Origin: Escherichia coli O157:H7
GTDB taxonomy: Bacteria; Pseudomonadota; Gammaproteobacteria; Enterobacterales; Enterobacteriaceae
Length of the DNA: 64,000 nucleotides
Strand: one strand, 5' to 3'
NCBI RefSeq assembly: GCF_013167455.1
Contig: NZ_CP038328.1
Positions 25,801 to 28,800 of the stretch are shown here, in pieces (position 1 is the first letter of the stretch; each line of letters starts with the position of its first letter). Position numbers: made by a program.

Positions 25801-28800
25801 CGTCTGGCGCAGGTACAGAAGCTGCTGCCGGTGGAACTGGCGGCCAGTAAAGGCATTGAGCTGGTGTATGTGAATACCAAAGGGATGAGCGATCCTGTCC
25901 AGATGCTGCGGGCGCTGACAGGAGATGCCGGGTTCGATGACATTTTTGTTTATGCGGCGGTGTCTGCTGTCGTTGAGATGGCTGATGAATTACTGGCGGA
26001 AGATGGCTGTCTGAACTTCTTTGCCGGGCCGACGGATAAAAACTTCAAAGTGCCGTTTAATTTCTACAACGTTCATTACAACAGCACGCACGTCGTCGGT
26101 ACATCCGGCGGTTCAACGGACGACATGAAAGAGGCGATTGCCCTTAGCGCCACAGGGCAGTTACAGCCCTCGTTTATGGTGACCCATATCGGTGGCCTGG
26201 ATGCGGTGCCAGAAACCGTGCTCAATCTGCCGGATATCCCTGGCGGTAAAAAACTCATTTATAACGGCGTGACCATGCCGCTCACTGCCATTGCCGATTT
26301 TGCCGAAAAAGGCAAAACCGATCCGCTGTTTAAAGAGTTGGCGCGGCTGGTTGAGGAAACGCACGGCATCTGGAATGAACAGGCCGAGAAATATCTGCTG
26401 GCACAATTTGGCGTTGATATCGGGGAGGCCGCGCAATGATGTCCCTGGCGTGGCCATTATTTCGCGTTACGGAACAGGCAGCGTTGGCTGCCTGGCCGCA
26501 AACCGGATGTGGCGACAAAAATAAAATTGATGGCCTGGCGGTCACCGCGATGCGCCAGGCATTAAACGACGTCGCTTTTCGTGGACGAGTGGTTATCGGC
26601 GAAGGAGAAATTGACCATGCGCCGATGCTGTGGATTGGCGAAGAGGTGGGCAAAGGCGATGGGCCAGAAGTCGATATCGCGGTTGATCCCATTGAAGGCA
26701 CGCGGATGGTGGCGATGGGGCAGAGCAATGCGCTGGCGGTCATGGCTTTCGCCCCTCGAGATAGCCTGTTACATGCGCCCGATATGTATATGAAAAAGCT
26801 GGTTGTTAATCGACTGGCTGCCGGGGCGATTGATCTGTCTTTGCCTCTGGCGGACAACTTGCGTGACGTGGCGCGGGCGTTAGGTAAACCGCTGGACAAG
26901 CTGCGCATGGTTACGCTGGATAAACCGCGTCTGAGTGCCGCGATTGAAGAAGCAACACAGCTGGGCGTGAAGGTTTTTGCCCTGCCGGATGGCGATGTCG
27001 CCGCCAGCGTGCTGACCTGCTGGCAGGATAATCCTTACGATGTGATGTACACCATCGGCGGTGCGCCGGAAGGCGTGATTTCTGCCTGTGCCGTTAAAGC
27101 ATTAGGCGGGAATATGCAGGCCGAGCTGATTGACTTTTGTCAGGCCAAAGGGGATTACACGGAAAATCGGCAGATTGCAGAGCAGGAGCGCAAGCGTTGC
27201 AAGGCAATGGGTGTTGACGTTAACCGTGTGTACTCGCTCGATGTACTGGTAAGGGGGAACGATATCCTCTTTAGCGCTACGGGCGTCACGGGCGGCGAGT
27301 TGGTGAACGGTATCCAACAGACGGCGAATGGAGTGCGGACGCAGACATTACTGATCGGCGGCGCGGACCAAACGTGTAATATAATAGACTCCCTGTATTG
27401 ATGGTGATCTATCGGAAGACCAATGGCGACGCTGTCAGAAGATGATGTGCTTGAGCAACTGGATGCACAGGACAATTTATTTTCATTTATGAAAACTGCG
27501 CATTCTATTTTGCTCCAGGGGATACGCCAGTTTCTGCCGTCGCTGTTTGTCGATAACGATGAAGAGAGCGTCGAATATGCAGTGAAGCCGTTACTCGCCC
27601 AAAGCGGCCCGCTTGACGATATTGATGTTGCACTGCGTTTGATTTATGCGCTGGGGAAAATGGATAAATGGCTGTACGCCGATATCACGCATTTTTCCCA
27701 GTACTGGCATTACCTGAAAGAACAGGATGAAACGCTCGGATTTGCCGATGACATGACTTGGGATTTTATCAGCAACGTCAATAGCATAACCTGCAATGCG
27801 ACGCTCTATGACGCGTTGAAAGCGATGAAGTTCGCCGATTTCGCCGTCTGGTCAGAGGCGCGTTTTAGCGGAATGGTCAAAACGGCGCTGACGCTGGCAG
27901 TAACGACCACCTTAAAGGAATTAACGCCGTGAAAATTGAATTAACGGTGAATGGGCTGAACGTGCAAGCGCAGTACCATGATGAAGAGATAGAACGCGTG
28001 CATAAACCGTTGCTGCGTATGCTGGCGGCCTTACAGACGGTAAATCCGCAGCGCCGAACCGTGGTTTTTCTTTGCGCTCCGCCGGGGACGGGTAAATCTA
28101 CCCTAACCACCTTCTGGGCATATCTCGCGCAACAAGACCCGGAGCTGCCCGCTATTCAGACGCTCCCGATGGATGGTTTTCACCATTACAATAGCTGGCT
28201 GGATGCGCATCAATTGCGCCCCTTCAAAGGCGCACCAGAGACATTTGACGTTGCGAAACTGGCGGAAAATCTGCGCCAGGTCGTGGAAGGGGATTGTACG
28301 TGGCCGCAGTACGATCGACAAAAGCATGATCCTGTTGAAGATGCGTTGCACGTTACCGCACCAATAATCATCGTCGAAGGAAACTGGCTATTGCTGGATG
28401 ACGATAACTGGCGCCAGCTAGCGCAATTTTGTGATTTCTCGATCTTTATCAATGCGCCAGCTACTGCGTTGCGGGAACGACTGGTGGGGCGCAAGCTGGC
28501 GGGAGGGTTATCGCTGGCAGACGCAGAAGCTTTTTATGACCGTACCGACGGGCCGAATGTTCGCCGGGTGCTGGAAGAGAGTCTGCCTGCAAATTTGACC
28601 TTAATGATGACCGCTACGGGTGAATATCGTCTGGTGGATTAATGTTCCTGATTAGACCATCTTCCAGTCGCACCACACGAGAGAAATGACGCCGGGTAAA
28701 TGCGGCGTCATGACTGATTGCTACGACGCTCGTGCCTCGCTGGCGGCACTTCTCCAGCCAGCTTTCAAACACGCTCAACCAATTTTCGTCAAAATCCCGA

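What the first reader, a model, noticed from the sequence alone, without database searches (positions are those of the whole stretch)
28614..28642. Convergent 29-nt coding overlap between yggC and the last ECF ATPase
The plus-strand yggC stop (28640-28642) lies 29 nt inside the 3' end of the minus-strand ATPase ORF (stop at 28614-28616). With no spacer for terminators, transcription from either side must run into the other gene. It also means the acquisition or deletion junction lies within coding sequence.
Basis: seen in the sequence. Interest (0 to 1): 0.3.

Follow-up and report, generated by a model that had tools for sequence, protein, structure and literature searches.

The report
Tail-to-tail overlap of yggC and z4271
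The 29-base overlap between the ends of yggC and the last transporter ATPase gene is real. It is an ordinary, ancient seam between two gene blocks, where the ATPase reading frame runs a few unconserved codons into the far strand of yggC; nothing suggests a special device.

Summary
**Observation confirmed.** yggC (+, 27929-28642, TAA) and the last ECF ATPase (-, 28614-29291, TAG) overlap by 29 nt, and RefSeq annotates them the same way. The window is E. coli O157:H7. The ECF block is O-island 119 (lmiA/z4267 to z4271).

**Conservation.**
- 3320 of 5426 complete E. coli genomes carry this junction.
- Wherever yggC follows this ATPase, the two genes overlap by 26-92 nt. This holds in Escherichia, Salmonella, Citrobacter, Silvania and Superficieibacter.
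- The codon phase is always the same, and it is the commonest phase for convergent overlaps.

**Which gene owns the sequence.** The overlapped bases encode conserved YggC residues (G231, Y233, R234). On the other strand they encode only an unconserved, low-confidence ATPase tail beyond the ABC core.

**The seam.** Relatives that lack the cmtB-yggC block end the ATPase 0-11 codons after its core. A canonical bidirectional terminator shared with tktA usually follows. In E. coli that terminator position lies 5.6 kb away.

**Junction claim partly right.**
- The K-12/O157 difference starts inside yggC about 230-250 nt upstream of the overlap. It is a divergent allele (about 60% identity), not a clean indel.
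- The older seam, between the cmt-ygg block and the ECF operon, does fall in the ATPase's last codons.

**Read-through.** It is plausible but untested. Low interest.

The parts
28614..28642 (.). 29-nt tail-to-tail coding overlap. It covers yggC codons A229(part)-D237 plus TAA, and ATPase codons I217(part)-P225 plus TAG. Codon phase is (123:132).
   Evidence: phase statistics from PMC2174442
27929..28642 (+). yggC (nucleoside/nucleotide kinase family protein, 237 aa), last gene of the cmtB-cmtA-yggP-glpX(yggF)-fumE(yggD)-yggC block
   Evidence: NCBIfam NF006742 518.9 bits; PGAP annotation; C-terminal residues M227, G231, Y233 at least 99% and R234 73% conserved in 99 homologues
28614..29291 (-). 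z4271, second ATPase (A2, 225 aa) of the ECF transporter of O-island 119; last gene of the lmiA-S-T-A1-A2 operon
   Evidence: Pfam ABC_tran 96.7 bits; ECF_ATPase models are the best NCBIfam hits but below cut-off; PGAP; orthologues in more than 40 species; OI-119 gene list in PMC7667037
28617..28649 (-). A2 tail RNINPPDDIHP (residues 215-225), beyond the conserved ABC core; its last 9 codons are read from the antisense strand of yggC
   Evidence: Last invariant column L209, near-invariant G212, and nothing conserved after residue 214. PDB ABC domains align only to about residue 214-216. AlphaFold pLDDT is 79 for residues 211-220 and 56 for 221-225, against more than 90 elsewhere. The 'D-I-H' in the tails is the antisense of the conserved YggC G-E-Y-R.
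29285..31690 (-). Rest of O-island 119: A1/z4270 (29285-29962), T/z4269 (29950-30657), S/z4268 (30658-31236), lmiA/z4267 PPC-DUF296 regulator (31259-31690)
   Evidence: PMC7667037 and PMC8565820
28390..28413 (+). Left breakpoint of the ECF-present / ECF-absent (K-12 type) haplotypes, inside yggC. Upstream, identity between haplotypes is mostly 90-100% (73-77% in one short early stretch). Downstream, the K-12 type is about 60% identical to the end of the gene.
31819..31841 (.). Right breakpoint of the same polymorphism, about 130-150 nt upstream of lmiA and about 220-240 nt upstream of epd
23016..28642 (+). cmtB-yggC block (5.6 kb). It is absent from K. oxytoca, C. youngae, Kluyvera and others, where the ATPase is instead followed, in most, directly by the tktA terminator.
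22988..23015 (.). Bidirectional intrinsic terminator AAAAAGGTCGCTTCGGCGACCTTTTTT after tktA. It occupies the position of the terminator that directly follows the ECF ATPase in most cassette-less relatives.
   Evidence: read from the sequence; comparison
28686..28711 (+). 9-bp GC-rich hairpin AUGACGCCG..CGGCGUCAU, 45 nt past the yggC stop and inside the ATPase gene. It has no U-tract and was considered and rejected as a terminator.
   Evidence: z-score -1.86 for the 201-nt region; not reported by the terminator scan
31844..31862 (-). Published PhoP footprint CTTACGTCACGTTTTCAGC upstream of lmiA; the driver of minus-strand transcription toward the overlap
   Evidence: Sequence from PMC7667037, located in the window text printed

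Best explanation
The overlap is the seam where two gene blocks meet tail to tail with no spacer. One block is the cmtB-cmtA-yggP-glpX-fumE-yggC block (+ strand). The other is the lmiA-S-T-A1-A2 ECF-transporter operon (O-island 119, - strand).

The conserved core of the ATPase ends about 8 nt beyond the yggC stop codon. The ATPase has no stop of its own at that point, so its frame reads on through the antisense strand of the last yggC codons until the first chance stop, a TAG formed opposite yggC's GCT-ACG. YggC constrains these bases. The ATPase tail is an unconserved passenger, probably disordered.

The arrangement predates the split of Escherichia, Salmonella and Citrobacter. Its length drifts (26-92 nt) as stop codons move, while the codon phase stays fixed.

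A side effect is that neither operon has an intrinsic terminator at its end. I infer, without having shown it, that read-through is stopped by Rho on the untranslated antisense RNA, or by polymerase collision, after it enters the neighbouring gene.

Separately, K-12-type strains lack the ECF block because the segment from mid-yggC to about 220 nt before epd was replaced by a short, highly divergent allele.
For: **Shown.**
- Coordinates and annotation agree.
- The junction is present in 3320 of 5426 E. coli genomes.
- The same epd-lmiA-S-T-A1-A2 order occurs in more than 40 species representatives. Protein identities to E. coli (A2 about 71%, S about 90%, LmiA about 80%) are in line with the neighbouring FumE (82%) and YggC (about 76%).
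- GC content is not atypical and no significant flanking repeats were found.
- In all 18 loci from the genome scan, plus S. enterica and S. bongori, where yggC follows A2, the genes overlap by 29, 32, 44, 26, 41, 53, 68 or 92 nt. The length is always 2 modulo 3.
- That phase, (123:132), is the commonest for convergent overlaps longer than 4 nt and fits the stop-codon-mutation model (PMC2174442).
- The A2 alignment loses all conservation after residue 214. Solved ABC domains align only to about residue 214-216. The tail has low pLDDT.
- YggC G231, Y233 and R234, inside the overlap, are conserved in 99 homologues, including homologues from genomes where no ECF-yggC junction was found.
- Within Citrobacter, cassette-less C. 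youngae and cassette-bearing C. werkmanii are homologous up to A2 codon about 208. Homology resumes exactly at the terminator AAAAAAACGGGCCGCCTGAGCGACCCGTTTT, 5.64 kb later.
- Eight of the ten cassette-less species examined have that terminator 0-25 nt after the A2 stop.

**Inferred.**
- Rho or collision termination. A C-rich, G-poor stretch lies 40-180 nt past each stop. Collision-driven termination of convergent pairs is described in bioRxiv 10.1101/2022.10.23.513370.
Against: - The polarity of the seam is not resolved. The cmtB-yggC block may have been inserted next to the ATPase, or it may have been deleted repeatedly in cassette-less lineages. Both states coexist within Citrobacter and within Silvania.
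- The aligned position of the 'ancestral' ATPase stop rests on one cassette-less species (C. youngae). Cassette-less tails are themselves variable.
- The unbroken overlap and fixed phase across about 8 lineages could reflect selection rather than inertia.
- No transcript data were available, so all termination statements are inference.
Confidence: 0.75

Rival explanations
1. The terminator-less overlap is a selected regulatory device of the excludon type. PhoP/low-Mg2+-induced transcription of lmiA-ECF runs antisense into yggC and the cmt-ygg operon, and the reverse also happens. This would give mutually exclusive expression through RNA polymerase collision or RNase III cleavage of the duplex.
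For: There is no intrinsic terminator between the genes. Every one of 20 loci with both genes keeps an overlap and the same phase. lmiA has a characterised inducible promoter (PMC7667037). Excludons and collision termination are documented phenomena (PMC12288877).
Against: The overlap length varies from 26 to 92 nt and the ATPase tail sequence is unconserved. Many species and about 39% of E. coli genomes manage with only one of the two blocks. The persistence is explained by inheritance plus the small target for indels. No transcript evidence exists. The cmt genes are regarded as cryptic in K-12 (my background knowledge).
Confidence: 0.1
2. One reading: the overlap is the scar of a recent insertion of the ECF island into a K-12-like yggC-epd backbone (or of its deletion), with the breakpoint in the 29 nt.
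For: K-12 lacks the island. The literature calls OI-119 horizontally acquired (PMC7667037). One strain, BS-04, carries a deletion whose left end is exactly at 28613/28614.
Against: The same overlap exists in Salmonella, Citrobacter, E. albertii and others. The K-12/O157 divergence starts 230-250 nt upstream, inside yggC, and K-12 has a complete but about 60% identical 3' end, not a truncated or fused one. K-12 holds no ECF remnants. Island composition and divergence look vertical.
Confidence: 0.04
3. The pair was once separated by a spacer, perhaps with a terminator. The overlap grew gradually through loss of stop codons and small deletions, not through a block-level rearrangement.
For: Stop-codon shifts clearly occur. 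Escherichia's TAG sits 5 codons before the Citrobacter TAA, and both tails are extended in C. koseri and UBA5654. The stop-codon-mutation model fits E. coli convergent overlaps in general.
Against: In every lineage the conserved cores of the two proteins are only 13-31 nt apart, so no trace of a spacer survives. The Citrobacter comparison shows a sharp 5.64-kb block boundary inside the ATPase 3' end.
Confidence: 0.12
4. Annotation artefact: the ATPase is a decaying pseudogene, or it ends earlier, so there is no real coding overlap.
For: Both ATPases lack the C-terminal domain of about 55 residues found in canonical EcfA proteins and in the Proteus orthologues. A2 has a degenerate signature motif (LHSAQ).
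Against: Intact ORFs at 62-98% identity occur in enterobacterial genera (51-56% in Trabulsiella and Proteus), with invariant Walker A, Walker B and H-loop. The fold prediction is confident (pLDDT 92.9). The first in-frame stop is at 28614-28616. PGAP calls the gene intact.
Confidence: 0.03

Closest known systems
Convergent (tail-to-tail) overlapping gene pairs generated by stop-codon loss or shift (PMC2174442)
   Same: Two opposite-strand genes share their 3' ends. The overlap is tens of nt. The phase is (123:132), the commonest for such overlaps. One partner contributes only a variable tail.
   Different: The origin can be tied here to a block-level seam (cmtB-yggC block against ECF operon), not just to a point mutation. 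The pair is also traceable across several genera.
Bidirectional intrinsic terminators and collision-assisted termination of convergent gene pairs (bioRxiv 10.1101/2022.10.23.513370)
   Same: It is a convergent pair of operon ends. Most cassette-less relatives have exactly such a terminator after this ATPase, shared with tktA.
   Different: In E. coli O157 no hairpin with flanking A and U tracts lies between or near the stops. That study reports a stem-loop as necessary for positioned collisions, and none is evident here.
Excludons (overlapping transcription of neighbouring opposite-strand genes; PMC12288877)
   Same: The geometry guarantees that any transcript covering one gene's 3' end is antisense to the other.
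   Different: Excludons are defined by transcript overlap with reciprocal expression, and no expression data exist for this pair. Here the overlap is in coding sequence, not in the long UTRs described for excludons.
O-island 119 of EHEC O157:H7 (lmiA/z4267-z4271; PMC7667037, PMC8565820)
   Same: The gene content and order are the same: a DUF296/PPC regulator, two 'hypothetical' membrane proteins and two ABC ATPases, about 3.1-3.3 kb in total. The window sequence is 100% identical to O157:H7 genomes.
   Different: The literature treats it as a horizontally acquired O157 island. The data here show an ancestral enterobacterial locus present in 61% of complete E. coli genomes. Its annotated left end necessarily lies inside yggC.
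Group I (dedicated) ECF transporters such as CbiMNQO/BioMNY
   Same: S, T and two ATPase genes sit in one operon. The S component passes the Pfam ECF_trnsprt cut-off.
   Different: Both ATPases are about 225 aa and lack the canonical EcfA C-terminal domain. The substrate is unknown: the best S-component model is the CD3073 family, below its cut-off. The 'cobalt transporter cbiQ-O' label in the E. coli W paper (PMC3032704) is an annotation, not a tested function.

Membership tests
Convergent overlapping gene pair | Two CDSs on opposite strands whose 3' ends share bases | tested here: met
   29 nt, 28614-28642
Convergent overlapping gene pair | Both partners are real, conserved protein-coding genes | tested here: met
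   YggC matches NF006742 at 518.9 bits and has 1710 homologues. A2 orthologues are intact in more than 40 species and the fold prediction is confident.
Bidirectional intrinsic terminator at a convergent junction | GC-rich hairpin flanked by an A-tract and a U-tract, between or at the two stops | tested here: not met
   No site within about 400 nt of the junction. The hairpin at 28686-28711 lacks a U-tract. The minus-strand fold has z-score -0.24. The feature is met in eight of ten cassette-less relatives and at tktA/cmtB.
Excludon | Overlapping antisense transcripts of the neighbouring genes | not testable with these tools
   Needs strand-specific RNA-seq or 3'-end mapping of O157:H7
Excludon | Reciprocal (mutually exclusive) expression of the two units | not testable with these tools
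   Needs expression measurements with the lmiA promoter on and off
Horizontally acquired genomic island (as OI-119 is described) | Atypical composition, mobility genes or flanking repeats | tested here: not met
   GC is 0.52-0.58 in the island against 0.49-0.57 in the flanks. The five genes include no integrase or IS. Only short, chance-level repeats were found.
Horizontally acquired genomic island (as OI-119 is described) | Absent from the same locus in related species | tested here: not met
   The same epd-adjacent synteny occurs in Salmonella, Citrobacter, the K. oxytoca group, Kluyvera, Superficieibacter and others. The operon also occurs in Proteus, where no epd match lay within the flank examined.
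ECF transporter, group I | S component, T component and two ABC ATPases encoded together | tested here: met
   PF12822 32.5 bits (cut-off 30.7); CbiQ PF02361 20.5 bits (below the cut-off of 25, so weak); two ABC_tran hits at 96.7 and 77.3 bits; PGAP names
ECF transporter, group I | EcfA-type ATPases with the C-terminal helical domain | tested here: not met
   A2 aligns to EcfA 4huq_B residues 6-220 of 279. NCBIfam ECF_ATPase hits are below cut-off and cover profile positions 5-231 of 279. The Proteus orthologues are 283 and 273 aa and retain the domain.

The most novel reading that the evidence does not exclude
For as long as Escherichia, Salmonella and Citrobacter have been separate lineages, the lack of any terminator between the two operon ends has been kept by selection. 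In this reading it couples PhoP/low-Mg2+ induction of lmiA-ECF to antisense silencing of the yggC-fumE-glpX-cmt sugar-phosphate block, as an excludon built from a coding overlap.
Probability: 0.08. Interest if true: 0.45.

Novelty: new member of a known kind. Interest (0 to 1): 0.2.

Why it matters
**Practical points.**
1. Any clean deletion of z4271 or of 'OI-119' as annotated removes the last nine codons of yggC, including the conserved G231, Y233 and R234. Natural strain BS-04 shows this outcome: its yggC is annotated as a frameshifted pseudogene. Mutant phenotypes should be read with that in mind.
2. OI-119, which carries the virulence regulator lmiA, looks like an ancestral enterobacterial locus that K-12-type strains lost by allelic replacement. 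It does not look like an EHEC acquisition. That changes the evolutionary story told about LmiA.
3. The locus is a clear worked example of how a convergent overlap forms at the seam of two gene blocks, and of which partner pays for it.

None of this is surprising to a specialist.

Tried and rejected
- **Intrinsic terminator at the junction.** The consensus scan found nothing within about 400 nt, and counts were no higher than in shuffled sequence. Folds of both strands were unremarkable (z-scores -1.86 and -0.24). The 9-bp hairpin at 28686-28711 has no U-tract and lies inside the ATPase gene.
- **Structured RNA or riboswitch.** Rfam on 22800-32300 gave only one sub-threshold istR-like match, over the tktA terminator.
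- **ECF remnants in the K-12 yggC-epd spacer.** None found (tblastn, E up to 10).
- **Flanking direct repeats or target-site duplication around the island.** Only short, chance-level families. One inverted repeat (28388-28404 / 28807-28823) is simply the 'LLLDD' and 'LLLLDE' Walker-B-like motifs of the two P-loop proteins on opposite strands. It coincides with the left breakpoint, and I did not pursue it.
- **Donor of the K-12-type yggC 3' end.** The best non-Escherichia match is only 65% over the last 79 aa. The donor remains unknown.
- **Homology of cassette-less ATPase tails to overlap tails.** I considered whether tails such as Buttiauxella 'TSDGSPA' are homologous to the tails in the overlap. 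They are better explained as remains of the canonical ABC continuation seen in Proteus ('IADDVPE'). I left this open.
- **'Earlier alternative stop'.** Impossible by definition of the ORF, and PGAP agrees.
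Full report
**1. The observation**

The window is E. coli O157:H7; it is 100% identical to several O157:H7 chromosomes.

yggC runs on the + strand from 27929 to 28642 and ends with TAA at 28640-28642. The minus-strand ABC ATPase ORF ends with TAG at 28614-28616. The two share 28614-28642, which is 29 nt.

NCBI's PGAP annotation of the identical sequence gives the same ends, with the ATPase start at ATG 29291 (225 aa). It gives the same ends in a B2-phylogroup strain that is 95% identical.

A 181-nt probe across the junction matches 3320 of 5426 complete E. coli genomes at 97% identity or better. Both CDSs are annotated beneath the match in every listed row that covers the junction.

**2. What the genes are**

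YggC is a conserved nucleoside/nucleotide-kinase-family protein (NF006742, 518.9 bits). It is the last gene of the + strand run cmtB, cmtA, yggP, glpX(yggF), fumE(yggD), yggC.

The minus-strand genes, in transcription order, are:
- a PPC/DUF296 DNA-binding protein (31259-31690);
- an ECF S component (30658-31236);
- a T component (29950-30657);
- two ABC ATPases, A1 (29285-29962) and A2 (28614-29291).

By gene content and locus tags this is O-island 119 of EHEC. z4267 is lmiA, a PhoP-activated regulator of the LEE, and z4268-z4271 are the transporter genes (PMC7667037, PMC8565820). [quoted passage not shown] The substrate is in fact unknown: the best S-component model is the CD3073 family, below its cut-off.

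**3. The overlap is old and inherited**

A scan of one genome per species found the A2 orthologue in 46 loci. In more than 40 of them the order lmiA-S-T-A1-A2 is kept, and in most it lies next to epd.

Identities to E. coli in the Citrobacter freundii group are:

| Protein | Identity to E. coli |
|---|---|
| A2 | about 71% |
| A1 | about 80% |
| T | about 80% |
| S | about 90% |
| LmiA | about 80% |
| FumE (neighbour) | 82% |
| YggC (neighbour) | about 76% |
| Epd (neighbour) | 95% |

The island genes therefore fall within the range of their neighbours. The island's GC content matches its flanks. It has no mobility genes and no meaningful flanking repeats. This points to vertical descent, not recent acquisition.

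In every one of the 18 scanned loci where yggC lies downstream of A2, the genes overlap. Independent gene calls add S. enterica and S. bongori.

| Lineage | Overlap (nt) |
|---|---|
| All five Escherichia lineages | 29 |
| Salmonella arizonae, diarizonae, enterica | 32 |
| S. bongori | 53 |
| C. freundii group | 44 |
| Silvania confinis | 26 |
| Superficieibacter | 41 |
| C. koseri | 68 |
| A metagenome-assembled enterobacterium (UBA5654) | 92 |

All these lengths are 2 modulo 3, so the codon phase is constant. Position 1 faces position 1, and positions 2 and 3 face 3 and 2. This is phase (123:132), the commonest phase for convergent overlaps longer than 4 nt (49% in 58 prokaryotes, 46% in E. 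coli). It is the phase expected from stop-codon mutation (PMC2174442).

**4. Who owns the shared bases**

Across 99 YggC homologues, M227, G231 and Y233 are at least 99% conserved and R234 is 73% conserved. Only the last three residues vary. G231, Y233 and R234 lie inside the overlap.

The A2 alignment, by contrast, has its last invariant residue at L209 and a near-invariant G212, with no conserved column after residue 214. Solved ABC domains align only to about residue 214-216. An AlphaFold model is confident overall (mean pLDDT 92.9) but falls to 79 for residues 211-220 and 56 for 221-225.

The one motif that recurs in A2 tails ('DIH' or 'SDI') is simply the antisense reading of YggC's conserved G-E-Y-R codons. 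The bases are therefore constrained by YggC, and the ATPase tail is a passenger.

Given that the frame enters yggC's antisense strand, running 9 codons without a stop has a probability of about 0.65. The length is unremarkable.

**5. How the overlap arose**

Species that have the ECF operon but lack the cmtB-yggC block include the K. oxytoca group, Kluyvera, C. youngae and other Citrobacter, Silvania hatchlandensis and Buttiauxella. In the ten examined, A2 ends 0-11 codons after its 'RLxxGx(L/I)' motif. In eight of the ten a textbook bidirectional terminator (AAAAAAACGGGCCGCCTGAGCGACCCGTTTT) follows within 0-25 nt, and convergent tktA lies beyond it where this was checked.

Within the single genus Citrobacter, cassette-less C. 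youngae and cassette-bearing C. werkmanii are homologous up to A2 codon about 208. Homology resumes 5.64 kb later, exactly at that terminator. In cassette-bearing genomes the ATPase's own last codons, its stop and its terminator are thus replaced by the end of the cmtB-yggC block.

In E. coli the equivalent terminator (AAAAAGGTCGCTTCGGCGACCTTTTTT, 22988-23015) sits between tktA and cmtB, 5.6 kb from the ATPase.

Codon by codon, C. youngae reads ...CGC ACA TAG, where E. coli reads ...AGG AAC ATT AAT CCA.... The E. coli ATT codon straddles yggC's TAA. This is an illustration from one species, and cassette-less tails are themselves variable.

I cannot tell whether the block was inserted or was lost repeatedly. 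Both states occur within Citrobacter and within Silvania.

**6.

K-12 has yggC, then 284 nt, then epd. Aligned to O157, yggC is mostly 90-100% identical up to about 28390-28413, apart from a short early stretch at 73-77%. From that point to its stop it drops to about 60% (38-80% in 30-nt windows). Both versions are 237 codons long. Homology resumes at about 31819-31841, roughly 220 nt before epd. No ECF remnant is detectable in K-12.

The polymorphism is therefore a replacement of about 3.4 kb by about 0.29 kb that carries a foreign-looking yggC 3' end. It is not an indel at the overlap.

The K-12-type end, with the same 284-nt spacer, also occurs in E. fergusonii and in some E. albertii. The O157-type end with the ECF block occurs in other E. 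albertii, in E. whittamii and in a cryptic-clade Escherichia.

Over the last 79 residues the O157 type is 70-78% identical to other genera, while the K-12 type is at most 65% identical, and no donor was found. I conclude, with moderate confidence, that the ECF-bearing haplotype is ancestral and the K-12 type is the import.

Simple deletions also exist:
- Strain BS-04 lacks 28614-31788, which is exactly A2 through the lmiA promoter, and has a 51-nt filler in its place. Its yggC is consequently annotated as a frameshifted pseudogene.
- Escherichia sp. E1V33 fuses lmiA codons 1-27 to A2 codons 165-225 and leaves the overlap intact.

**7. Transcription**

No intrinsic-terminator-like site lies at the junction. 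Folding of either strand across it is unremarkable. A 9-bp hairpin at 28686-28711 has no U-tract. Rfam finds nothing.

Whether transcription 'must run into the other gene' was not tested here.

The most likely fate, which is inference, is Rho-dependent termination of the untranslated read-through. Both read-through RNAs have a C-rich, G-poor stretch 40-180 nt past the stop (C/G up to 2.2 and 1.8). That Rho suppresses antisense transcription is established background knowledge. Head-on polymerase collision may add to this (bioRxiv 10.1101/2022.10.23.513370), although that work found a stem-loop necessary for positioned collisions.

An excludon-like regulatory role is not excluded. Minus-strand transcription is driven by the published PhoP-dependent lmiA promoter (footprint at 31844-31862). 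However, nothing requires such a role, and many genomes carry only one of the two blocks.

**8. Comparison and verdict**

This is an ordinary member of the class of convergent overlapping gene pairs. It has the usual phase and one dispensable tail. It is made slightly more instructive because its origin can be traced to a block seam and followed across genera.

It fails the test for a bidirectional-terminator junction. It cannot be tested for excludon membership with the tools available.

The transporter is a group I ECF system in gene content, but both ATPases lack the canonical EcfA C-terminal domain that the Proteus orthologues retain.

Interest is low (0.2). The useful by-products are the warning that z4271 and OI-119 deletions clip yggC, and the evidence that OI-119 is ancestral and not acquired.

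Noticed in passing
window 28614-31841 (O-island 119); loci L005-L047, L054, L055: OI-119, which carries the LEE regulator lmiA, is described in the literature as horizontally acquired by EHEC. The same lmiA-S-T-A1-A2 operon nevertheless occurs in Salmonella, Citrobacter, the K. oxytoca group, Kluyvera, Proteus and others, and it lies next to epd wherever an epd match fell within the flank. Its divergence and GC content look vertical. 61% of complete E. coli genomes carry it.
   Followed up: partly
window 28390-28642 (yggC 3' third); L002, L050-L053: yggC is a mosaic gene. The last 250 nt or so exist as two alleles only about 60% identical. One allele is linked to the presence of the ECF block and the other to its absence, and both are shared across Escherichia species (E. 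coli, E. fergusonii, E. albertii). No donor for the K-12-type allele was found.
   Followed up: partly
L056 (E. coli BS-04, NZ_CP172819.1), equivalent to window 28614-31788: This strain has a precise deletion of A2 through the lmiA promoter, replaced by a 51-nt filler of unknown origin (TTTTTTTTTAAATAAGAAGACCTGTCTTACTTAACAGCGACGATTTATCCG). The deletion clips the last 29 nt of yggC, which is annotated as a frameshifted pseudogene.
   Followed up: partly
L044 (Escherichia sp. E1V33) and L045 (Citrobacter sp. Awk 4): Internal deletions of the ECF operon leave only the 3' end of A2 (from codon 165). In L044 this remnant is fused to lmiA codons 1-27 and the overlap with yggC is preserved. L045 has no yggC.
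   Followed up: no
window 28614-29962; L037 5166-6822 (Proteus terrae): Both ECF ATPases are about 225 aa in the enterobacterial genera examined (Escherichia, Salmonella, Citrobacter, Klebsiella, Kluyvera and others) and lack the C-terminal domain of about 55 residues. The Proteus orthologues (283 and 273 aa) and canonical EcfA proteins retain it. A2 also has a degenerate signature motif (LHSAQ), whereas A1 has LSGGE.
   Followed up: partly
window 22988-23015: A canonical bidirectional terminator lies between tktA and cmtB. Its sequence differs from the Citrobacter/Klebsiella terminator at the same position, which is nearly invariant across several genera (AAAAAAACGGGCCGCCTGAGCGACCCGTTTT).
   Followed up: partly
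H30, NZ_CP180597.1: One E. coli genome matches only the epd-proximal 14% of the probe, and cmtA is annotated next to epd. This suggests a larger deletion that removes yggP-yggC as well as the ECF block.
   Followed up: no
window 28388-28404 and 28807-28823: A 17-nt inverted repeat (82% complementary) is formed by the Walker-B-like 'LLLDD' of yggC and 'LLLLDE' of the ATPase on opposite strands. The left arm coincides with the left breakpoint of the K-12/O157 haplotypes.
   Followed up: no
window 31816-31828 and 31900-31912; K-12 locus L002 2245-2293: 'GGAATAAA'-containing palindromes sit at the right breakpoint (GTGGAATAAATTCCAC in O157) and just after the K-12 yggC stop (TTTATTCCAG...CTGGAATAAA). 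They could be a K-12 yggC terminator stem or a recombination landmark.
   Followed up: no
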